A stretch of DNA of 64,000 bases. Source: an uncultured delta proteobacterium. Lineage in GTDB: Bacteria > Desulfobacterota > Syntrophia > Syntrophales > UBA2185. Positions 35,966 to 54,991 of this stretch are shown piece after piece. The position numbers were made by a program, and so were the translations under genes. The stretch lies in contig CAVOID010000007.1 of NCBI GenBank assembly GCA_963695875.1, positions 110,877-174,876 of the forward strand, in the 5' to 3' direction. Under the pieces are notes generated by a model. That model saw nothing but the letters and a program-made list of their open reading frames with translations. It was not told the DNA's origin and ran no database searches. Each line of letters opens with the position of its first letter. Position 1 is the stretch's first letter.

Positions 35966-36811
35966 ATGAGTCAAGAAAACCGTTCTTTTCGCGGGGGTTC
36001 CAAATATGTTCTCGATGATGAACTGGCAAAGATTGTGAATGTTTCCATGGCCCTGGAGATGCCCCTTCTGCTCAAGGGTGAACCGGGTACAGGCAAGACG
36101 ATGCTCGCCCATGCCATTTCCGAAAGTCTTGAAGATGCCCCTGATCGTGCTGAACGTGAAGTCCAGCATGAAGCTGGTGGATGCCCTTGTATCAGTACGA
36201 TACCCTGACGCGCCTCAACGACAGCCGCTTCGGGGATTCCAAGCGGGATGTGAGCAACATCGAAGAATACATCCGGATGGGGAAAATCGGGCAGGCCTTC
36301 GTGTCGGAGGTGCGAACGGTGCTCCTGATCGATGAGATCGACAAGGCCGACAGCGATTTTCAGGATGACATGCTCGATGTCCTCGACCAGATGCAGTTCG
36401 ATATCATAGAGATTGACAAGACCATCACAGCCCGTAACCGGCCGGTGATAGTCATTACGTCCAACGCCAAGAAGGACCTCTCCGATCCCTTCCTGGGCCG
36501 CTGCAATTTCCACCACATTGCCTTTCCCGATGTCGGGATGATGCGGCTTATTGTGGATGTTCATTTTCCCAATCTGAGCAAAGAGATGGTCTGATTCCTG
36601 CATCGAGGCCTTCTACCGCTTGCGTGAATTCAAGGGAATTGAAAAGAAACCGGCCACGCGGGAGTTGATCAACTGGATTCGCGCCCTGAAAACGGACCCT
36701 GATTTTCAAGTGAAATCGCTTAACCGGGGGAATTTGCCCTATCTGGGCATCCTCTTCAAGAAAAGCGCCGATCTGACGGCGGCTGCCCAGCAGGTCGCGA
36801 GAATGCGCTGA
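35966..36811 (+). CDS. MoxR-family AAA+ ATPase (several frameshifts)
   Basis: LLKGEPGTGKT, LLIDEIDKAD, VITSN, KKPATRELINW across ORFs 35966, 36039, 36181 and 36620. Confidence 0.85.
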
Positions 36812-36817
36812 GAGGAA

Positions 36818-38019
36818 TTGGAATTGTTTGTCGAATTTTTTTATACGTTGCGTGAACGGGGGATTCCCGTATCTCCCACGTCTTTTTTGCGGCTGCAGAA
36901 AGCGTTGAGCCTTGGCGTGATCAAATCCGTTGATGATTTTTACACGGCCGCCCGGGCGATCCTCGTCAAAAGCGAGCGCTATTTCGATATGTACGATCAG
37001 GTATTTGCTCATTTTTTCAAGGGTGATTGCATTGCAGGCACCCGACGAGATTGAACTGACGGAGATCGTTAGGGCGCTCCTGGAAGAATGGCTGAAGAAT
37101 CCGGTCGGAAATCGCCGAGGCTCTTGGTCTGGATGAGTCAACGCTGAAAAAAATGACACCTGAGGAGCTGGTCCAATATTTTCTGGACCGTCTCAAGGAT
37201 CAGACGGAAGCCCACCATGGAGGAAACCGCTGGATCGGTACGGGCGGCACGTCGCCTGTAGGGCATTCGGGCTATCATCCCGGCGGCATGCGTGTGGGCG
37301 GGCGGTCCCGCAATAAATCGGCCATCAAAGTTGCCATGGAACGGCGATACAAGGATTATTCCCAGGAAGGACCCCTGACGGAGGTTCAGATGAGCGAGGC
37401 CCTGAAGCGCTTGCGCCGGATGGTGCCCTCGGGGCCGAAAGACGTGGTCAATGTGGATAAGACCATTTATGAGACGATGAGGAATGCCGGAGAAATCGAA
37501 ATCATCTTTGACCGACATCTGGCGGACCGTCTCAAGATTATCCTGATGATCGACAACGGCGGCTGGTCCATGGACCCATACATAGAGGTGGTGCAAACCC
37601 TGTTTCATTATGCCCGGAGCCAGTTCAAGGATCTGAAGATATACTTCTTCCATAACACCATTTACAGCCGTGTCTGGCAGGACCCGGAGCGACGATACAA
37701 ACCGGAGTTGATCGAAGATTTTATCCGCAAAGATCCGGAAACGCGGTTGATCATCGTGGGAGACGCAAGCATGGCTCCCTATGAGCTGATCCATAGCAAC
37801 GGCTCGATATATGTCGATGAGATCGAAGTAGGGACCGGCCTGGACCGTTTGAAATTTCTCGCACATACCTTCCGCCATGCCGTCTGGCTCAATCCCCAGT
37901 GCGAGCAGGAGTGGCGCCATACTTATACTATCGGCATCATCCGGCAGGTCTTCCCCATGTTCGAATTGACCCTGGACGGCCTGGAGAAGGCTGTTCAATG
38001 CCTCATGGCCAGACACTGA
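36818..38019 (+). CDS. VWA-domain (CoxE-like) partner protein (frameshifts near 37030-37130)
   Basis: HHGGNRWIGTGGTSPVGHSG, MIDAS-like DNGGWSMDPY, YFFHN, VGDASMAPYE, VWLNP. Confidence 0.82.
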
Positions 38020-45920: not shown

Positions 45921-46193
45921 ATGGCGAGAATTACCGTTGAAGACTCATTGAAGGTGGCAAAAAACAGATTTGCTTTAGTTGTTTTGACTGCAAAAAGAAC
46001 AAGACAACTACTTAAAGGTTCGAAACCTCTGACGGATATAAAAAATAACAGGGAAATTGTGGCTGCCCTCAGGGAAATCGCCGCCGAAAAAGTAATGTAT
46101 GCCAATCCTGAATATTTACAGGGCATCAAAGTAGATTATAAACCCCTATTAGACGATACGGAATTTATTGATGATGAGGAGTACCTTGAATAG
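45921..46193 (+). CDS. rpoZ: RNA polymerase omega subunit
   Basis: MARITVED, NRFALV, ALREIA. Confidence 0.95.
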   Translation: MARITVEDSLKVAKNRFALVVLTAKRTRQLLKGSKPLTDIKNNREIVAALREIAAEKVMYANPEYLQGIKVDYKPLLDDTEFIDDEEYLE

Positions 46194-46936
46194 AAATCCA
46201 CGGGAGATGCTTATTTTTGCCCTTGATGTTGGGAAGGGTATAGACGAGGCAATCTCATGGGTCGAACGGCTCAAGGATACTGTAGAAATATTTAAGGTAG
46301 GAAAGGAATGCTTTACCCGCTATGGTCCTTGTGTCATTGATATGATAAGGGAAAGAGGTAAAAAAGTCTTTCTCGACCTAAAGTTTCATGATATTCCGCA
46401 TACAGTAGCCGGTGCTGCTGCTGGGGCTGTGGAACACGGGGTTTACATGTTTAACGTTCATGCACTTGGCGGGAGAAAGATGATGGAGGAAACTGTTACC
46501 GCAGTTAATAGGGCAGTCAAGGAAGTTGGCGTGTCGATGCCCATAATCCTAGCGGTAACCGTGTTGACGAGTTTAAATGACAGTGATCTAATGCAACTGG
46601 GATTTAATTGCTCAGCGGATGAACTTGCAACACGTCTGGCAAGAATTGCGCAGGAATCCGGTAGTTTCCGGTGTTGTAGCATCAGCCCATGATATTGATA
46701 ATATTCGCAGGGCATGTGGATATGATTTTATAATTGTGACACCTGGTATTAGAGATGCAGTCGCAGTGGATGATGATCAGAAAAGAACATCTACGGTTAG
46801 AGATGCCATAATGCGAGGTGCTGATTACATAGTAGTTGGTAGACCCATCAGGAAAGCAACAGATCCGGTTCGTAAGGCAGAAGAGATTGTGCGCGAGATT
46901 ACTGAAGGTCTTGCAATGCGACAAGAAGTAGTATAA
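46186..46936 (+). CDS. pyrF: Orotidine-5'-phosphate decarboxylase (frameshift near 46660)
   Basis: ALD, FLDLKFHDIPHT, VTVLTS, TPGIR, DDQKR, VVGRPI. Confidence 0.93.
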
Positions 46937-49141: not shown

Positions 49142-49218
49142 TGGTCGGGATGGCGCGATTTGAACGCGCGACTCCTGCGTCCCGAACGCAGTGCCCTACC
49201 GGACTGGGCCACATCCCG
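49142..49218 (-). tRNA. tRNA-Pro (CGG)
   Basis: Minus strand cgggatg...catcccg-acca cloverleaf; anticodon arm ctgcg-ttCGGga-cgcag. Confidence 0.95.
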
Positions 49219-49485: not shown

Positions 49486-49902
49486 GTGATAATATATGAC
49501 CTCAAATGTGAAAAAGGACATAAATTCGAGGGATGGTTTAAAGACAGAAGTGCATTTGAAAATCAGAAATCCAAAAGGCTTATAACCTGTCCCGTTTGTG
49601 GGAATTCTGATGTAGAGATGATACCTTCCACAATGTCTATCATGGCAAGAGACACCAAGGCAATTAACAGGGAAAATGTAGAGGAATTATCTATGCCGAG
49701 GGCCATAAAGTTATTCCATGAATACCTCAATAAGAATTTTGATGATGTAGGCAAAAAGTTTACCGATATAGCCTTGAAGATGCACCATGGGGAGGAAGAG
49801 AAAAGAAATATCAAAGGGACTACTACTGAAAGTGAAGAAGATATTCTCAGGGAAGAAGGCGTTCAATTCTTCAAAATTCCCGTGACCAAATTTGACAGCT
49901 AA
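49486..49902 (+). CDS. DUF1178-family zinc-ribbon protein
   Basis: MIIYDLKCEKGHKFEGWF, CPVCG, DVGKKF, MHHGE, IKG. Confidence 0.85.
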   Translation: MIIYDLKCEKGHKFEGWFKDRSAFENQKSKRLITCPVCGNSDVEMIPSTMSIMARDTKAINRENVEELSMPRAIKLFHEYLNKNFDDVGKKFTDIALKMHHGEEEKRNIKGTTTESEEDILREEGVQFFKIPVTKFDS

Positions 49903-49963: not shown

Positions 49964-50135
49964 ATAGAAAGTTACATAGGCAGGATACGTGGCGCTGGCC
50001 AACGACGAGCACTAGACAATCCTGATCAAGTTTTCTTAAGCCCTGGCTGTAAGGATTTATGGATGAGGCATAAAGAGACGTAACCCTCAGTAACGAGGGA
50101 TGAAGTGCAAACTAAGCGTTTGGACTTTTACGAAG
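49964..50135 (-). repeat. Degenerate intergenic element, copy B (inverted)
   Basis: Minus strand gtaaaagtc...gtttgcacttcatccctcgttactg...ctcatcc...tgcctatgtaactttctat. Confidence 0.55.
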
Positions 50136-50195
50136 CCCCAATCTTTTTACTTTGTGAAGTCTGTTGTATCTATCCTTTTTATCAGTAATAACATC

Positions 50196-52509
50196 ATGCA
50201 AAGAACAAATAGGAGCATCATAGATACTATCGGGAATACCCCCCTCGTGGAAATTCATAAGCTGAATCCTAACAATAAGGTTAAAATTTATGCGAAACTT
50301 GAGAGTTTCAATCCCGGGGGATCCGTAAAGGACAGGATAGCTCTTTATATGGTTAATGAAGCGGAAAAGAGGGGTGAACTGTCGAAGGGATAAGATCATT
50401 CTGGAGGCAACGAGTGGAAATACGGGTATCGGTCTTGCACTCATTGCTGCCGCCAAAGGGTTACAGATTGTGTCTGACTATGTCTGAATCCGTCAGTGAG
50501 GAAAGAAAAAAAATTCTTAAGGCGATGGGAGCAGAATTGTACTTAACGCCGGCAAATCTCGGTACAGATGGTGCCATCGAAGTTGCATACAATATGATGC
50601 TGCAGAATCCGGGAAAGTATTTTGGGACGGACCAGTTTAATAACTATGATAATATGATGGCGCATTATCATGGTACCGGTGAAGAGATCTGGCAGCAGAC
50701 GAGAGGAGCTGTGACAATGGTGGTGGCAACCCTCGGCACGACAGGGACAGCCATGGGAATTTCCAAGCGTCTTAAGGAATATAATCCTGAAATCCAGATC
50801 GTCGGAGTCGAGCCTTACCTGAAGCATAAAATCCAGGGGCTGAAGAATATGAAGGAATCTTACCGTCCCGGAATCTTTGACAAGAATAAGCTGGATGAGA
50901 AGATTAATATCCTCGATGAAGATGCGTTTGAAATGGCCAGAAAGCTGGCCCGGCAAGAGGGAATACTTGCAGGTATGAGTTCAGGTGCTGCCATGCATGT
51001 AGCTGTGCAGAAAGCCAGGGAAATGGATCATGGTTTCATCGTTGTGATTTTCCCTGACAGCGGTGAGCGGTATCTCAGCACCGAACTCTTTACCGATAAG
51101 GAACAATCTACGCTCCGTATATATAATACATTGACTAGGGAAAAGGAATTTTTCAAGCCGATTCAAGCCGAAGAGATCCTTATGCATTCGTGCGGTCCGA
51201 CTGTTCATGAAGTACCGCATGTCGGAAACTATCGCCGGTTTGTCGTTTCCGACATGGTGAGGCGCTATCTTGAGTTTAAGGATTATAAAGTCAAACACGT
51301 GATGAATATTATTGATCTGGGACGACAGGTCTATCAAAGAAGCGGAACAGGCCAATATGGAACTGTCCGTATATACGGAAAGATGTACAAATGAGTTTTT
51401 CAACGATATCGTGAAAATTGAATTTAATACAGGAAGAGATCTATCCCCGAGCAAGCAAAAATGTTGAGACCATGGTGAAGCTTGTTGAGAAACTTGTGGA
51501 AAAGGGTTATGCATATGAAAAATTGAGGTCTGTATACTTCGACATATCGAAGATCGATGATTACGGCCGTCTGTCACGTATTGACCTGAAAAAAGTTAAG
51601 GCCGGTAAAACGATTGATCTTGATGATTATGAAAAAGACAGCCCCATGGACTTTACTCTCCTGAAGCGATCTACTTTGAATGAATTAAAGAGGGGCATTT
51701 ATTTCAAGACCCGCTGGGGAAATGTAAGGCCGAGCTGGCATCTCGAATGTGCGGCCATTTCCCTTAGATATTTAGCGGATACCTTTGATATTCATGCCAG
51801 CGGAACGGATGTCGTCTTTCCACACTGTGAAAATATCATGGCCATTGGGAAAGCTGCCACAGGAAAGCGCATGGCGAACTACTGGATCAATACTGAACTG
51901 GTTATGGTGGACGGTAAAAAAATGTCCCGCTCCTTGAACAATGATAACACTATTGAAGATTTGGAAGGAATGGGATATGGCGGCAGGGATATAAGATTTT
52001 TTCTTTTGAATACGCACTATCGCAAGCCGCTCAATTTTTCTTATGGTGCCCTGGATACGGCAAAAAACACGGTCAGAAAATTGGATCGGTTTATTCAGCA
52101 ACTTATCCATTATACACCCGGTGACGGTTATCCTGATACTGATCAACTTATTTATGATGTTAAACAGAGATTTTCCGATGCCATGGATGATGATTTTAAT
52201 ATATCAGGTGCGCTGGCCGCGCTTTTTGAGTTTGTAAGGCAGATCCGCATTCCTCTTTCCCGCTGGCGATTGAGCGGGAAGGAAAGGAATGATGTGCTCG
52301 ATGTCATGAAAAGGATTGACAGTGTCCTTGGTATAATGAATTTTATGGAAGAGCCGTTGAGCGAGGAGGCATTAAAGCTTCTGAAAGAAAGAGAAGTCTT
52401 GAGGGCATCCGGTGACTGGGAAGCTTCAGATGAGATCAGGAAGAAACTCGGTGGGATGGGAATTGAGGTTTCCGATACCGTTTCTGGGATGATCTGGCGG
52501 TTGAAATAG
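50196..52509 (+). CDS. Cysteine synthase (CysM/K) - cysteinyl-tRNA synthetase-like fusion (about four frameshifts)
   Basis: [15 protein letters not shown] (PLP Lys), [17 protein letters not shown] read in frame into [21 protein letters not shown]; then WHLEC, FPH, KMSRS, HYRKPL and anticodon-domain SDEIR. Confidence 0.88.
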
Positions 52510-52541: not shown

Positions 52542-53378
52542 GTGGAAAAGGACATTAGAAAGTCAGTTATTGCCGGGACCTGGTATCCGGGCAATCCCCG
52601 TATTCTGCGTGCAGATATAGAAGAATTTTTTCATAACGTACCTGATGAGAAAATCGAAGGAAAGATTATCGGCCTTATTGCTCCCCATGCAGGATATGTC
52701 TATTCAGGTCAGGTCGCTGCCTTTGCCTACAAAATCATCAGGGGAGAAACCTTTGACGCCGTAATACTATTGGGGCCGAGTCACAGAACTTTTTTCCACG
52801 GAGTTTCCGTATATGATAGAGGCGGATATGAAACTCCTTTAGGAGTTGCTTCCGTGGATGTATCATTAGCGAAAGATATTATGGCGCAAAGCAAAATGAT
52901 ATCCTACATACCGGCTGCTCACTCACAGGAGCACTCTTTGGAAATACAGGTTCCTTTTCTTCAGGTAGCCCTGAAAGAATTTCGCTTTGTGCCGCTCGTG
53001 CTGGGAGAGCAGGACCGTCAGACGTGCGATACACTAGCCGAAAGCATCGTCAGGGCTGTGGGTGATCGCCGGGTGTTGATTGTGGGAAGCTCTGATCTTT
53101 CGCATTTCCATTCGTATGAGAAGGCGGTAAAACTTGATTCTGTTGTGTTGAGACGTATAGAAAAGATGGATGCCGGGGGCTTGTTAAAAGATCTGGAAGA
53201 GAATGTTAGCGAAGCCTGCGGAGGGGGACCGGCTGCCGTAACCATGATGGTTTCCAAGATGTTAGGTGCAGACAGGACAAAAATATTGAAGTATGCAAAT
53301 TCGGGAGATGTGACGGGAGACAGAGGAAGCGTCGTCGGGTATGCCTCTGCGGTTTCTTATAAGGCCCGTAATCTTTAA
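52542..53378 (+). CDS. amrB: AmmeMemoRadiSam system protein B (MEMO family)
   Basis: AGTWYP, APHAGYVYSG, GPSH, EHSLE, SSDLSH, CG, VVGY. Confidence 0.92.
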   Translation: MEKDIRKSVIAGTWYPGNPRILRADIEEFFHNVPDEKIEGKIIGLIAPHAGYVYSGQVAAFAYKIIRGETFDAVILLGPSHRTFFHGVSVYDRGGYETPLGVASVDVSLAKDIMAQSKMISYIPAAHSQEHSLEIQVPFLQVALKEFRFVPLVLGEQDRQTCDTLAESIVRAVGDRRVLIVGSSDLSHFHSYEKAVKLDSVVLRRIEKMDAGGLLKDLEENVSEACGGGPAAVTMMVSKMLGADRTKILKYANSGDVTGDRGSVVGYASAVSYKARNL

Positions 53379-53404
53379 GTCATATTGCGGTCAGGGGGAA
53401 TATC

Positions 53405-53944
53405 ATGATGCTGACGGAATTGGAAAAAAAATCACTTATTGATATAGCGAAAACAACGATAGAAGGCAGGCTCACAGGCAAGGGTATCTCTGAACCACAT
53501 GTTGAATCGGAGGTACTGAAGCAAAAGAGTGGAGCCTTTGTAACTCTTAAGAAACATGGGCGTCTGAGAGGCTGTATCGGTTACATCGAGGCGAGAAAGC
53601 CTCTTTACAAAACTGTGGCAGAAATGGCTATGGCGGCGGCCTTCAATGATCCGCGTTTTCCTCCTCTGAAGCCTGAGGAGTTAACGCATATAACTCTTGA
53701 GATATCCGTACTCAGCCCATTGAAAGAAATTAAGGATATCAAGGAAATAGAAGTAGGTATCCATGGCCTTTACATTACCAAAGGATATAATTCTGGCCTT
53801 CTGCTTCCCCAGGTTGCTACAGAATATAAATGGGATAGTTTGACTTTTCTTAAGGAAACCTGTTATAAGGCCGGCCTTCATCCGGATGCGTGGAAAGATA
53901 AAGATACACGGATTTATATATTTTCCGCAGATGTTTTTGACTAA
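53405..53944 (+). CDS. amrA: AmmeMemoRadiSam system protein A (AMMECR1 domain)
   Basis: GAFVTL, LRGCIG, DPRFPP, EISVLS, GLLLPQV. Confidence 0.92.
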   Translation: MMLTELEKKSLIDIAKTTIEGRLTGKGISEPHVESEVLKQKSGAFVTLKKHGRLRGCIGYIEARKPLYKTVAEMAMAAAFNDPRFPPLKPEELTHITLEISVLSPLKEIKDIKEIEVGIHGLYITKGYNSGLLLPQVATEYKWDSLTFLKETCYKAGLHPDAWKDKDTRIYIFSADVFD

Positions 53945-54203: not shown

Positions 54204-54279
54204 GCTGGCGTAGCTCAACAGGTAGAGCAGCTGATTTGTAATCAGCAGGTTGCGGGTTCGAGTCCCATCGCCAGCTCCA
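54204..54279 (+). tRNA. tRNA-Thr (TGT)
   Basis: gctggcg/cgccagc acceptor stem, ctgat-tTGTa-atcag, CCA end. Confidence 0.95.
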
Positions 54280-54298
54280 GTATTCGGTTATACAATCT

Positions 54299-54383
<85 letters not shown>

Positions 54384-54442
54384 GGTAATTGTATCGAGCA
54401 AGAATTTTTGAAGGATGGCCTTCAGGATTTTTTCCATAACGA

Positions 54443-54518
54443 GCGGGAGTAGCTCAGTGGCTAGAGCGTCAGCCTTCCAAGCTGAGGGTCGCGGGTTCGA
54501 ATCCCGTTTCCCGCTCCA
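54443..54518 (+). tRNA. tRNA-Gly (TCC)
   Basis: tcagc-ctTCCaa-gctga, CCA end. Confidence 0.95.
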
Positions 54519-54630
54519 TTATTGGATTTCTACTAATTGAACTCCTTATGTAATTAGATTTCTAAATTACGAATCACTGAGCAGAGAGTAATGGGTAAGT
54601 AAAGTATTGAGAGGATGTTATTAACAAATT

Positions 54631-54706
54631 GCCCACGTAGCTCAGTCGGTAGAGCACATCCTTGGTAAGGATGAGGTCACCAGTTCAATCCTGGTCGTGG
54701 GCTCCA
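54631..54706 (+). tRNA. tRNA-Thr (GGT)
   Basis: catcc-ttGGTaa-ggatg, CCA end. Confidence 0.95.
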
Positions 54707-54728
54707 TTCTGATAGAAGTAGGTTAATT

Positions 54729-54878
54729 ATGAGAAATATTATTACCTTGGCCTGTACGGAATGTAAGCAAAGAAATTATACAACGACGAAAAATAAACGT
54801 ACAATGCAGAATCGTCTGGAATTAAAAAAATACTGTAAATTTTGTCGGTCTCATAAGATTCACAGGGAAACAAAATAA
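54729..54878 (+). CDS. rpmG: 50S ribosomal protein L33 (zinc-ribbon form; not in ORF track)
   Basis: Hand translation [49 protein letters not shown]. Confidence 0.96.
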
Positions 54879-54914
54879 CTTATTGTTCATAGAGAGTATG
54901 CAGCTGTAATAAAC

Positions 54915-54991
54915 AGGCCAGTAGCTCTAATGGATAGAGCGCCGGACTCCAAATCCGGATGCTGGGGGTTCGAGTCCCTCCTGGCCTGCCA
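54915..54991 (+). tRNA. tRNA-Trp (CCA)
   Basis: ccgga-ctCCAaa-tccgg, CCA end, upstream of secE. Confidence 0.95.

What the first reader, a model, noticed from the sequence alone, without database searches (positions are those of the whole stretch)
51100..52509. The fused CysRS domain has a rewired active site
Seen versus the canonical bacterial CysRS motifs: DIHGGGxDLxFPHHENE becomes [17 protein letters not shown] (second His to Cys; Zn-ligand Glu to Ile); GRPGWHIEC becomes VRPSWHLEC; DFxLWK becomes DFTLLK; TDIDDKII becomes IDLDDRSI; KMSKS becomes KMSRS; HIGH becomes HVGN. Zn ligands Cys, Cys and His remain. Known: CysRS paralogues such as MshC ligate cysteine to non-tRNA acceptors. Inference: altered amino-acid specificity or a non-translational ligase role.
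Basis: partly seen in the sequence, partly recalled or inferred. Interest (0 to 1): 0.7.

Follow-up and report, generated by a model that had tools for sequence, protein, structure and literature searches.

The report
Cysteine synthase fused to remodelled CysRS
This gene joins a cysteine-making enzyme to a second, active-site-remodelled copy of the enzyme that loads cysteine onto tRNA; it is conserved across Syntrophus-type anaerobes, I found no paper that studies it, and its apparent breaks in this genome are most likely sequencing errors.

Summary
I judge these to be assembly errors. Every relative and all contigs of 97%-identical strains that cover each site lack them. The same assembly also splits gyrB over three frames.

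The gene (window 50196-52509) is the orthologue of a 769-aa CysM-CysRS fusion. It is present in 35 of 40 Syntrophales relatives, beside a canonical cysS and stand-alone cysK genes.

The pocket changes are family-wide:
- H235C, W184L and K269R each occur in 120 of 120 database representatives.
- E238 to V/I/L occurs in 115 of 120, and T68 to I/V in 113 of 120.

HIGH to HxGN is ordinary among canonical CysRS. Cys28, Trp205, Cys209, His234 and the whole anticodon-binding domain are kept.

I rate this a live, zinc-dependent paralogue that still works on tRNA-Cys and is fed by its own CysM half (confidence about 0.45). A change of substrate or a regulatory role is not excluded. A MshC-like role without tRNA is unlikely.

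This scan has met the same family at least 12 times on other genomes, and I found no paper on it. It is a new variant of a known kind, of moderate interest.

The parts
50196..52509 (+). Whole CysM-CysRS fusion gene (about 769 codons once the four extra bases are set aside). It is the orthologue of the 769-aa P0001 of same-genus genome G002.
   Evidence: It is 88.7% identical in DNA to G002 (2107 of 2376 columns). dN/dS is 0.057 over 767 codons.
50196..51090 (+). CysM-type PLP domain (PALP). Key motifs: PLP lysine SVKDR 50322-50336, Asn loop TSGNTG 50410-50427, GTTGT 50735-50749, MSSGAA 50975-50992.
   Evidence: Pfam PALP on the window pieces scores 57.1 and 133.9 bits. For P0001, TIGR01136 cysKM scores 372 against a cut-off of 344. 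P0001 aligns end to end with E. coli CysM 2BHS at 275 bits.
50385..50385 (+). Extra base 1 (placement within +/-1-2 nt); the frame shifts 0 to 1.
   Evidence: Absent in G002, G009 and G018. It is 'left out' in all covering depth of the contigs of runs X1, X4 and X5 (table 4: 50384/50386).
50461..50461 (+). Extra base 2 (somewhere in 50455-50461); the frame shifts 1 to 2.
   Evidence: In one search table 4, position 50455 is left out in X1 (15.5 of 15.5), X4 (5.83 of 5.83) and X5 (10.2 of 10.2).
51107..52506 (+). CysRS-like half: catalytic domain, DALR_2 and the CysS_C anticodon-binding domain.
   Evidence: Pfam tRNA-synt_1e scores 53 and 194.3 bits, DALR_2 41.8 and CysS_C 29.4 (cut-off 23). 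The PDB matches are 8qhp at 323.8 bits and 1li5 at 300.4 bits. Fold matches have TMt 0.90 and 0.88.
51191..51193 (+). Cys28 equivalent, a zinc ligand, kept. The HVGN motif follows at 51218-51229.
   Evidence: CGP[TS] occurs in 120 of 120 representatives. One of 26 aligned orthologues (L041) has Thr here.
51305..51319 (+). NIIDL: the Thr68 equivalent is replaced by Ile (codon 51311-51313).
   Evidence: I or V occurs in 113 of 120 representatives, and 4 keep NxTD. Of 49 canonical representatives, 47 have T.
51320..51323 (+). Extra base 3; the frame shifts 2 to 0, at the codon for E. coli position 71.
   Evidence: In one search, positions 51322/51323 are left out in X1 (15.5 of 15.5) and in X5 (5.7 + 7.07 of 12.8). 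X4 has no depth here.
51411..51414 (+). Extra base 4; the frame shifts 0 to 1.
   Evidence: In one search, position 51414 is left out in X1 (15.5 of 15.5), X4 (12.6 of 12.6) and X5 (9.67 of 9.67).
51649..51669 (+). DFTLLKR (Trp184 to Leu). This is the signature of the wider cysM-linked CysRS family.
   Evidence: Found in 120 of 120 representatives. DF[TA]L[LFM][KR]R occurs in 19 of 150 representatives, none of them canonical. It is also present in fused and cysM-adjacent forms of other phyla.
51724..51750 (+). VRPSWHLEC: Trp205 (51736-51738) and the zinc ligand Cys209 (51748-51750) are kept; G201V and G204S are changed.
   Evidence: RP[SGT]WH..C occurs in 120 of 120 representatives.
51817..51837 (+). 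FPHCENI: His234 is kept (51823-51825), His235 becomes Cys (51826-51828) and the zinc-ligand Glu238 becomes Ile (51835-51837).
   Evidence: FPHC occurs in 120 of 120 representatives. Position 238 is V/I/L in 115 and T in 5. FPHC is seen in only 3 of 150 50%-cluster representatives, all of the Syntrophales type, and in 1 of 28 fused loci from other records, which is a Syntrophales MAG.
51919..51933 (+). KMSRS (Lys269 to Arg).
   Evidence: Found in 120 of 120 representatives and in 8 of 150 representatives, all in the paralogue family.
52414..52506 (+). C-terminal anticodon-binding strand-helix unit ([12 protein letters not shown]...IWRLK).
   Evidence: In alignment A1, R731, R735, D744, R747, G754, D759 and G763 are invariant and W740 and W766 are at least 90% conserved. 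Each is identical to the aligned E. coli residue (R423, R427, W432, D436, R439, G446, D451, G455, W458).
52542..53944 (+). Memo-like (52542-53378) and AMMECR1 (53405-53944) genes, starting 32 nt downstream. They are conserved neighbours and possibly co-transcribed.
   Evidence: Pfam Memo scores 231 bits and AMMECR1 205 bits. The same pair lies directly downstream in 11 of 11 same-family loci and in 5 of 9 loci from other genomes; a sixth of those nine shows the Memo-like gene alone.

Best explanation
Window 50196-52509 encodes the orthologue of a Syntrophales-wide 769-aa protein. In it a CysM-type cysteine synthase is fused, through a flexible linker, to a full-length paralogue of cysteinyl-tRNA synthetase.

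The four frame breaks in this copy are single-base insertion errors of a noisy assembly, so the real gene is intact (shown).

The CysRS half belongs to a wider lineage of CysRS genes that sit next to, or are fused to, this CysM type in many anaerobes (shown). In Syntrophales it coexists with a canonical cysS (shown). It has undergone a fixed, concerted remodelling of the zinc and cysteine pocket: T68 to I/V, H235 to C, E238 to V/I, Q241 to I, G204 to S, Y26 and Y33 to H, K269 to R. Cys28, Trp205, Cys209, His234, the ATP motifs and the anticodon-binding domain are kept (shown).

Inferred: it is still a zinc- and ATP-dependent enzyme that binds a thiol amino acid, most simply the L-cysteine made by its own CysM half, and transfers it to tRNA-Cys. 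That would make it a 'make-and-charge' module. The lost carboxylate zinc ligand would be replaced by Cys235 or by one of the new histidines, giving a more sulfur- or nitrogen-rich zinc site with altered selectivity or sulfide tolerance.
For: The frame breaks are errors:
- All 4 extra bases are absent from same-genus and same-family orthologues.
- They are absent from all covering depth of independent contigs from three runs; run X1's contig spans the stretch with 76 other letters and 5 gaps.
- 31 of the 36 orthologous hits in relatives lie in open frames of 738-814 aa.
- Against G002, the assembly carries 106 single-base extras versus 56, and 17 two-base extras versus 3, over 68,883 columns.
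- 16 of 69 compared ORFs hit it in more than one frame. These include gyrB, split over three frames.
- dN/dS is 0.057.

It is a paralogue:
- A canonical cysS is present at 548.9 bits.
- cysK is present at 469.5 bits, together with a second cysK/M.
- The fusion is in 35 of 40 relatives. The canonical cysS is in 36, plus one more in pieces.
- The Syntrophales-type clade (13 rows, SH-aLRT 99) is separate from the canonical clade (16 rows, 99).

It is live rather than dead:
- C28, W205..C209, HxG[NST] and KMSRS are each in 120 of 120 representatives.
- There are 67 shared conserved positions against 16 class-specific ones.
- P0001 scores 396 bits on TIGR00435 against a cut-off of 340.
- In an E. 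coli study, K269A CysRS kept its protein-synthesis potential (PMC5660078, passages read).

It is linked to tRNA:
- DALR_2 and CysS_C are present.
- Nine anticodon-domain residues are identical to E. coli.
- The genome has one ordinary tRNA-Cys(GCA) with U73.

It is coupled to CysM:
- Of 80 related loci, 28 are fused and 10 have a separate cysM-like gene directly upstream. Nine of those 10 have fully canonical FPHHENE + KMSKS motifs, in CPR, DPANN, Asgard and Methanosarcinales MAGs.
- This suggests the ancestral partner was a working CysRS.
Against: - No activity was measured.
- The Glu238 zinc ligand and Thr68 are both gone. From recall of the 1LI7 structure paper, which I could not read here, Thr68 binds the alpha-amino group of the substrate. 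Lys269 is Arg.
- Whether Cys235 or a new His can reach the zinc could not be checked, because the structure tool returns no coordinates.
- One of 26 orthologues (L041) has Thr at Cys28.
- Sister lineages of the same fusion have lost the HIGH, KMSKS and zinc ligands yet keep the fusion (P0123, P0127, P0129, P0131; 12 of 28 fused loci lack KMSxS). So the fusion can persist without aminoacylation.
- 5 of 40 relatives lack the gene, so it is dispensable.
Confidence: 0.45

Rival explanations
1. Changed substrate. The remodelled pocket activates a thiol amino acid other than cysteine that the CysM half can make, such as cysteine persulfide, S-sulfocysteine, selenocysteine or homocysteine. It then loads that amino acid on tRNA-Cys or releases it.
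For: - The class-specific changes cluster on the pocket helices: T68, G201-S210, G226, H235, E238, Q241.
- They are fixed across the order.
- The canonical cysS already covers ordinary charging.
- E. coli CysM is known (from recall) to accept thiosulfate, and the N-terminal half is CysM-like (375 bits on cysM; 2BHS at 275 bits).
- The genome uses selenocysteine: it has a tRNA-Sec.
Against: - Three zinc ligands and Trp205 are unchanged, so thiolate recognition of a cysteine-sized side chain remains the simplest reading.
- No second tRNA-Cys or unusual tRNA was found in the genome.
- Loading a non-cysteine residue on the only tRNA-Cys would corrupt translation.
Confidence: 0.2
2. Regulatory or scaffold role. 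The CysRS half no longer aminoacylates. Instead it senses cysteine and/or uncharged tRNA-Cys and tunes the attached CysM, in the way the HisRS paralogue HisZ regulates HisG (HisZ is recalled, not read here).
For: - Related fusions with destroyed catalytic motifs keep the fusion and the C-terminal domain (12 of 28 fused loci lack KMSxS).
- The gene is dispensable in 5 of 40 relatives.
- Both Thr68 and Glu238 are lost.
Against: In the Syntrophales type the HxG, KMSRS, C28, C209, H234 and W205 positions are each held in 120 of 120 representatives. A pure binding module would not obviously need this, and the dead lineages did not keep them.
Confidence: 0.2
3. MshC-like ligase. The domain adenylates cysteine and transfers it to a non-tRNA acceptor, such as a small-molecule amine, for a low-molecular-weight thiol.
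For: MshC is a precedent for a CysRS paralogue that works without tRNA (PMC2922099, passages read). The pocket is altered.
Against: - The full anticodon-binding domain is kept and conserved.
- The score on the MshC model is 185 bits against a cut-off of 485.
- No thiol-pathway genes are next to it; the neighbours are DUF1178, Memo-like and AMMECR1.
Confidence: 0.05
4. The four insertions are real, and this strain carries a freshly inactivated pseudogene or decodes it by +1 frameshifting.
For: There are four shifts, all in the +1 direction, in 2.3 kb.
Against: - The rate equals the genome-wide noise: 106 single-base extras in 68.9 kb is about 1.5 per kb, so about 3.6 would be expected in this gene.
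- gyrB is broken the same way.
- There are no premature stops or other lesions, and dN/dS is 0.057.
- The 97%-identical strains lack all four insertions.
Confidence: 0.05

Closest known systems
Canonical bacterial cysteinyl-tRNA synthetase (E. coli CysS; PDB 1LI5, 1LI7, 1U0B; NCBIfam TIGR00435)
   Same: [quoted passage not shown]
- It aligns over E. coli residues 2-461.
- Cys28, Trp205, Cys209 and His234, an HxGx motif and a KMSxS motif are kept.
- The intact orthologue passes the TIGR00435 cut-off, 396 against 340.
   Different: - It is fused behind a CysM domain.
- It is a second copy beside a canonical cysS.
- 16 class-specific positions differ, including T68I/V, W184L, H235C, E238V/I, Q241I and K269R.
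- It is only 36-39% identical to the canonical copies of the same genomes.
The wider cysM-linked CysRS lineage (DFTL[LF]KR signature), fused or adjacent. I found no paper on it, but this scan has noted it repeatedly.
   Same: - The same CysM type is fused upstream.
- The signature is DFTLLKR, with KMSRS in the live fused members.
   Different: - Outside Syntrophales, the 16 fused members with an intact KMSxS motif keep T68 and have FPHHENE (12) or FPHNENE (3); one has no match at the FPH motif.
- Others have lost the catalytic motifs.
- Only the Syntrophales clade has FPHC-E-N-V/I with NI[IV]D.
MshC (cysteine:GlcN-Ins ligase, a CysRS paralogue; PDB 3C8Z, 8HFM; TIGR03447)
   Same: It is a CysRS paralogue beside a housekeeping CysRS. 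It is detectably homologous at 123 bits.
   Different: - The PDB match to MshC stops at query residue 370 of 464, so it does not cover the C-terminal domain. From recall, MshC lacks the anticodon-binding domain.
- Here that domain is present and conserved.
- The model score is 185 against a cut-off of 485.
CysRS* of Desulfobacterales (second cysS next to selB*/selC*; Mukai et al., NAR 2017, PMC5389517, passages read)
   Same: It is an extra CysRS copy in a deltaproteobacterial-type anaerobe that also uses selenocysteine.
   Different: - According to the passages read, CysRS* lacks the anticodon-binding domain, has CP1 changes and sits downstream of selB*.
- This protein keeps the domain, is fused to CysM and lies next to the Memo-like and AMMECR1 genes.
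E. coli cysteine synthase B, CysM (PDB 2BHS; TIGR01138)
   Same: - The N-terminal half aligns over residues 4-295 at 275 bits.
- TMt is 0.92 at 47% identity.
- The PLP lysine, the TSGNTG loop and GTTGT are kept.
   Different: - It scores below the cysM equivalog cut-off (375 against 394) but above the cysKM subfamily cut-off (372 against 344).
- It is covalently tied to a CysRS-like domain.
- It is 44% identical to the genome's stand-alone cysK, and 39-49% over the two pieces of the second cysK/M.

Membership tests
Cysteine--tRNA ligase (TIGR00435 equivalog) | Whole-protein HMM score above the curated cut-off (340 bits). | tested here: met
   The intact orthologue P0001 scores 396.2 bits. The window copy scores only 274.6 + 78.4 bits because it is cut by the frame breaks.
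Cysteine--tRNA ligase (TIGR00435 equivalog) | The four protein zinc ligands Cys28, Cys209, His234 and Glu238. The numbering comes; the ligand roles are partly from PMC5660078 (two Cys) and partly recalled. | tested here: not met
   Cys28, Cys209 and His234 are kept. Glu238 is V/I/L in 115 of 120 representatives and T in 5 of 120. It is Ile in the window, at 51835-51837.
Cysteine--tRNA ligase (TIGR00435 equivalog) | Thr68 and His235, which are near-invariant in canonical enzymes. | tested here: not met
   T68 is present in 47 of 49 canonical representatives, and H235 is 100% conserved in the 45 canonical sequences. Here the residues are I/V in 113 of 120 and Cys in 120 of 120.
Cysteine--tRNA ligase (TIGR00435 equivalog) | Class I signatures HIGH and KMSKS. 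| tested here: inconclusive
   HxG[NST] is found in 120 of 120 representatives, but HxGN is also the commonest canonical state (36 of 49). KMSRS replaces KMSKS in 120 of 120.
Cysteine--tRNA ligase (TIGR00435 equivalog) | An anticodon-binding C-terminal domain. | tested here: met
   Pfam CysS_C scores 29.4 and 27 bits against a cut-off of 23, and DALR_2 is present. Nine conserved residues are identical to E. coli.
Cysteine--tRNA ligase (TIGR00435 equivalog) | Charges tRNA-Cys with cysteine. | not testable with these tools
   This needs an enzyme assay.
Cysteine--tRNA ligase (TIGR00435 equivalog) | It is the housekeeping (sole) CysRS of the genome. | tested here: not met
   The canonical copy lies at G000:C16:29054-30520. 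The three relatives without a canonical hit have an assembly gap there.
MshC-type non-tRNA cysteine ligase (TIGR03447) | HMM score above the cut-off (485 bits). | tested here: not met
   The score is 185.3 bits.
MshC-type non-tRNA cysteine ligase (TIGR03447) | No anticodon-binding domain (feature recalled). | tested here: not met
   The domain is present and conserved.
Cysteine synthase CysK/CysM (TIGR01136 subfamily) | HMM score above the cut-off (344 bits); PLP lysine and Asn loop present. | tested here: met
   The score is 372 bits. SVKDR and TSGNTG are in the window at 50322-50336 and 50410-50427. K45, S73, G74, N75, T76 and G77 are invariant in A1.
CysRS* of Desulfobacterales (Mukai 2017) | Lacks the anticodon-binding domain and lies downstream of selC*/selB*. 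| tested here: not met
   The domain is present. The neighbours are DUF1178, Memo-like and AMMECR1. The only tRNAs nearby are Pro, Thr, Tyr, Gly, Thr and Trp.
Catalytically dead aaRS-like regulators (HisZ-like; dead CysM-CysRS fusions) | Loss of the HIGH and KMSKS motifs and of the substrate ligands. | tested here: not met
   The motifs and three zinc ligands are kept in 120 of 120 representatives. This contrasts with P0123, P0127, P0129 and P0131.

The most novel reading that the evidence does not exclude
The Syntrophales-type domain would be a new aminoacyl-tRNA synthetase specificity. Its rebuilt Cys/His-rich zinc pocket, with Cys235 as ligand or as a catalytic thiol, would select a sulfur amino acid that its own CysM half makes from an alternative sulfur donor, for example cysteine persulfide or S-sulfocysteine. 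It would place that amino acid on tRNA-Cys. This would give these anaerobes a dedicated route to persulfidated Cys-tRNA, or a tRNA-borne sulfur carrier, separate from the housekeeping CysRS.
Probability: 0.12. Interest if true: 0.85.

Novelty: new variant of a known kind. Interest (0 to 1): 0.5.

Why it matters
CysRS is the textbook case of amino-acid selection by a zinc-thiolate bond without editing. Here a natural lineage has replaced the carboxylate zinc ligand and the neighbouring His, lost Thr68 and tied the enzyme covalently to a cysteine synthase. All this is conserved order-wide beside a normal cysS.

If the protein is active, it shows an alternative zinc site for cysteine recognition and a physical 'make-and-charge' coupling of amino-acid synthesis to tRNA loading. 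If it is not active, it is a new aaRS-derived sensor of cysteine or tRNA-Cys.

A cultured, non-pathogenic organism, Syntrophus aciditrophicus, carries the gene, so the question can be tested directly.

For genome annotation there are two lessons. These 769-aa proteins are currently named plain 'cysteine--tRNA ligase'. This particular assembly also needs polishing before any frameshift in it is interpreted.

Tried and rejected
- **Real pseudogene or programmed +1 frameshifting.** I considered this first, because all four shifts go the same way. I rejected it after the genome-wide comparison and the laid contigs.
- **Raw reads.** Run X21 gave no reads on the stretch, so it is no test. No RNA holder was listed, so nothing can be said on expression. 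The best runs hold only 0.24-0.42 of the words, so the source reads of this assembly were not seen.
- **Fusion as the only CysRS in some relatives.** G017, G018 and G020 show no canonical hit. In G017 the flanking gene ends at a contig end, and in G018 and G020 the whole 4.5-kb region is missing. These are assembly gaps, not evidence of loss.
- **tRNA-dependent cysteine synthesis with SepRS.** There is no SepRS in the genome: the best hit is 25.9 bits against a cut-off of 380. The free-carboxylate Asn loop of CysM is intact.
- **A dedicated or odd tRNA.** Only one tRNA-Cys(GCA) with U73 and one tRNA-Sec were found among 39 tRNAs in an 82.6%-complete genome. Rfam found nothing but tRNAs in the window.
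- **Promoter and terminator scan.** Around the gene it found nothing above the shuffled expectation.
- **Complex prediction of the CysM half against the CysRS half.** The verdict was 'no answer' (score 0.10, mark 0.32). This is not evidence either way.
- **Full-length AlphaFold2 model.** Mean pLDDT is 83.9 and pTM 0.62, with the linker 293-301 below 50. It gives no coordinates, so the zinc-site geometry could not be measured.
- **Literature.** The six aimed at the fusion itself found no paper on a CysM/CysK-CysRS fusion or on this pocket variant. Subscription journals and supplements are outside that library. The 2002 E. coli CysRS structure paper was not held, so the roles of Thr68, Trp205 and Glu238 are recalled.
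Full report
**What is in the sequence**

Under table 11 the finding's region holds three ORFs in three frames: 50100-50393, 50414-51394 and 51418-52509.

A three-frame translation shows a CysK/CysM-like protein followed by a CysRS-like protein. It can only be followed by moving one base forward four times, near 50385, 50461, 51320-51323 and 51411-51414. 'IDLDDRSI', however, straddles the third break.

Pfam finds these domains on the pieces:
- PALP: 57 and 134 bits.
- tRNA-synt_1e: 53 and 194 bits.
- DALR_2: 41.8 bits.
- CysS_C: 29.4 bits.

The intact same-genus orthologue P0001 (769 aa) has the order PALP 8-287, tRNA-synt_1e 319-622, DALR_2 657-713, CysS_C 720-767.

**The frame breaks are assembly errors**

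The window copy was aligned with orthologues from G002, G001, G009 and G018. It has exactly four extra single bases and is otherwise 88.7% identical to G002 (2107 of 2376 columns).

Across 40 relatives, 35 have the orthologue. Of the 36 hits, 31 lie in open frames of 738-814 aa. The 5 shorter ones lie in open frames of 447-624 aa: G001, G008 and G029 start within about 430 bases of a contig end, G005 has an ambiguous base (X in its translation), and G026 (624 aa) was not examined.

No public run holds the identical sequence; the best share of words is 0.42. I therefore laid the contigs of three runs from different studies. They carry strains about 97% identical: the X1 contig spans all 2601 bases with 76 differences and 5 gaps. 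At each of the four sites, all covering contig depth lacks the extra base. X4 has no depth at the third site. The raw-read run X21 laid nothing and is no test.

The assembly as a whole is indel-noisy:
- Of 69 ORFs from ten contigs of G002 with an orthologue at 70% identity or more in G000, 16 hit it in more than one frame. A few of these are antisense shadows of the same loci.
- Over 68,883 aligned columns, G000 has 106 single-base and 17 two-base extras, against 56 and 3 in G002. That is about 1.5 single-base extras per kb, or about 3.6 expected in this gene.
- One of the broken genes is gyrB, at 97% protein identity over its longest aligned piece and split over three frames.
- dN/dS of the window copy against G002 is 0.057 over 767 codons.

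I conclude that the real gene is intact. I leave 5% for a genuine, very recent pseudogene.

**Whose gene is it**

Database relatives at 67% identity or more are named Syntrophus aciditrophicus, S. gentianae and Syntrophales bacterium. They are annotated simply as 'cysteine--tRNA ligase' or 'cysteinyl-tRNA synthetase'.

The window's genome also has:
- A canonical cysS, at 548.9 bits against a cut-off of 340, with all the classical motifs.
- A third, 405-aa CysRS-like gene.
- A canonical cysK at 469.5 bits.
- A second cysK/M, itself split by a frame error.

The fused CysM half is 44% identical to the cysK, and 39-49% over the two pieces of the second cysK/M.

A canonical cysS is seen in 36 of 40 relatives, plus G011 in two pieces. 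In the three genomes without it, the region is at a contig end (G017) or wholly missing together with its flanks (G018, G020). No genome is therefore shown to rely on the fusion alone. Five relatives lack the fusion.

**The rewired site**

Numbering comes from the printed alignment to E. coli CysRS 1LI5.

In 26 aligned sequences (the window plus 25 relatives from about 20 families) the changes are shared. In the 120 best database cluster representatives the counts are:

| Feature | Count of 120 |
|---|---|
| Cys28 context | 120 |
| HxG[NST] | 120 |
| DF[TA]LLKR (W184L) | 120 |
| RPxWHx-C (W205, C209) | 120 |
| FPHC (H235C) | 120 |
| Position 238 V/I/L | 115 (T in the other 5) |
| KMSRS | 120 |
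| T68 to I/V | 113 (4 keep T) |

Some of this is not unusual:
- HxGN is the commonest state in canonical CysRS: 36 of 49 have it, 10 have HxGH and 3 were unmatched.
- W184L and K269R belong to a wider family.
- T68I/V, H235C and E238V/I are specific to the Syntrophales clade. FPHC appears in 3 of 150 50%-identity representatives, all of this type, and in 1 of 28 fused loci elsewhere, a Syntrophales MAG.

A group-specific-position scan compared 50 Syntrophales-type with 45 canonical sequences. It gives 16 positions conserved in both groups but different, against 67 shared.

His234, Glu238 and Gln241 sit at i, i+4 and i+7 spacing in a segment that the model predicts as a helix (H542-554). That face has changed from H-E-Q to H-V/I-I, while a Cys and two His have appeared nearby. 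This reads as a swap of the fourth zinc ligand rather than as decay. I could not verify the geometry, because the structure tool gives no coordinates.

**The wider family**

Profile-free searches and a tree place the Syntrophales clade (13 rows, SH-aLRT 99) outside the canonical clade (16 rows, 99). It sits among other non-canonical CysRS, but the branching among those groups is unresolved. Those other forms include:
- Fused and live, with an ordinary Zn motif (P0122: NITD, FPHHENE, KMSRS).
- Fused and dead (P0123, P0127, P0129, P0131: HIGH, KMSKS and zinc ligands lost).
- Stand-alone forms.

I took 80 genome loci related to a stand-alone member and classified them:
- 28 are fusions, from Acidobacteriota, Myxococcota and Thermodesulfobacteriota.
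- 10 have a separate cysM-like gene ending just upstream. These come from CPR bacteria and from DPANN, Asgard and Methanosarcinales MAGs. Nine of the 10 have FPHHENE + KMSKS.
- 33 have no such neighbour.
- 9 have no room on the contig.

Taxon labels are those of the MAG records.

The pairing of cysM with cysS therefore looks old, and it began with a catalytically ordinary CysRS. Fusion, K269R and then either decay or, in Syntrophales, pocket remodelling came later. That order of events is an inference, because the tree is not rooted.

**How it probably works**

Shown:
- The CysM half is intact. The PLP lysine, Asn loop and phosphate loop are invariant in A1, and it aligns end to end with 2BHS.
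- The linker is flexible, with pLDDT below 50 at 293-301.
- The CysRS half is full length and under strong purifying selection.
- The anticodon-binding domain is conserved. Its residues R731, R735, W740, D744, R747, G754, D759, G763 and W766 equal E. coli R423, R427, W432, D436, R439, G446, D451, G455 and W458. That these contact the GCA anticodon is recalled from the 1U0B paper, which I did not read here.
- The genome has one ordinary tRNA-Cys.

Inferred: the protein binds tRNA-Cys and a thiol amino acid at a remodelled zinc site and, most simply, charges the cysteine made next door.

One E. coli study reports that K269A keeps protein-synthesis potential. It also reports that K73 and K269 are PLP-binding lysines needed for a persulfide-synthase side activity (PMC5660078, passages read). 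Here both are Arg. K269R therefore need not abolish charging, whereas that particular moonlighting chemistry is unlikely in this domain.

I put 0.45 on the make-and-charge reading. I put 0.2 on a changed substrate, 0.2 on a regulatory, non-catalytic role (dead sister fusions show the fusion can outlive catalysis), 0.05 on a MshC-like non-tRNA ligase and 0.05 on a true pseudogene.

**Context**

The Memo-like and AMMECR1 genes follow 32 nt downstream. The same pair does so in 11 of 11 same-family loci and in 5 of 9 loci from other genomes; a sixth of those nine shows the Memo-like gene alone. The matching radical-SAM genes lie elsewhere in the genome. The meaning of this neighbourhood is unknown.

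**Novelty**

The six full-text searches aimed at the fusion found no paper on it or on this pocket. The nearest described cases are MshC (PMC2922099, passages) and CysRS* (PMC5389517, passages), and both fail the membership tests.

This scan's earlier notes describe the same family on at least 12 other genomes. The present window is therefore a rediscovery, on a poorer assembly.
- The error diagnosis.
- The separation of ordinary, family-wide and clade-specific substitutions.
- The longer list of pocket changes.
- The cysM-adjacent canonical forms in CPR and archaeal MAGs.
- The check that the 'missing' canonical cysS genes are assembly gaps.

Noticed in passing
window 36187-38016 and 46135-46933; G000:C3:140827-143234 (gyrB): Other genes of this assembly are split over two or three frames relative to the same-genus genome G002. 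This includes gyrB, at 97% protein identity over its longest aligned piece. Single-base extras run at about 1.5 per kb. Any frameshift seen in this genome should be treated as a probable assembly error.
   Followed up: yes
L002:1507-2724 (-) = G000:C9:149730-150947: A third CysRS-like gene of 405 aa. It has no anticodon-binding domain. It keeps HIGN and KMSKS, but the zinc pocket is gone (WNIQD for WHIEC, VRHHDYT for FPHHENE). It scores 301 bits on TIGR00435, below the cut-off. It lies next to a 455-aa membrane-protein ORF that I did not name. Similar genes with open frames of about 405 aa are in 14 of 40 relatives.
   Followed up: partly
window 52542-53944: The Memo-like and AMMECR1 genes (the two non-radical-SAM parts of the 'AmmeMemoRadiSam' set) directly follow the fusion gene. 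The same pair follows it in 16 of 20 related loci, and in one more the Memo-like gene alone was found. The radical-SAM partners lie elsewhere, at G000:C11:93393-94400 and C1:7998-8982.
   Followed up: partly
L080, L081, L085, L087, L090, L091, L096, L097, L100, L103 (MAG records): In CPR bacteria and in DPANN, Asgard and Methanosarcinales MAGs, a cysM-like gene ends a few dozen bases upstream of a CysRS with canonical catalytic motifs and the DF[TV]L[LFM]KR signature. This is an unfused form of the same pairing. The script counted 10 adjacent loci. This list is read from the rows.
   Followed up: partly
G000:C13:3231-4128 (-): A second stand-alone cysK/M gene, itself split into two frames (263 + 185 bits on TIGR01136). 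This is probably another assembly error.
   Followed up: no
G000:C6:27424-27521 (-): A tRNA-Sec (UCA) gene, so the organism probably uses selenocysteine. There is one tRNA-Cys(GCA) at C12:62709-62786, called at 78 bases.
   Followed up: no
window 49142-49218 (-) and 54204-54991 (+): A tRNA-Pro(CGG) lies upstream. Downstream is a cluster of five tRNAs: Thr-UGU, Tyr, Gly-UCC, Thr-GGU and Trp.
   Followed up: no
window 49486-49902 (+): A DUF1178 zinc-ribbon protein lies upstream of the fusion gene. It is found in the same place in 4 of the 11 related loci whose flanks I examined; those flanks reach only about 1.5 kb.
   Followed up: no
G020:C128:23752-24840 and G020:C191:1890-2978: One relative carries two copies of the fusion gene (652 and 640 bits). 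Its contamination estimate is 6%, so this may be strain mixture.
   Followed up: no
L041 (G025:C48): One orthologue has Thr in place of the zinc ligand Cys28 (MTSTGPSVH) while keeping C209, FPHC and KMSRS. This is either a sequencing error or a lineage that is losing the zinc site.
   Followed up: no
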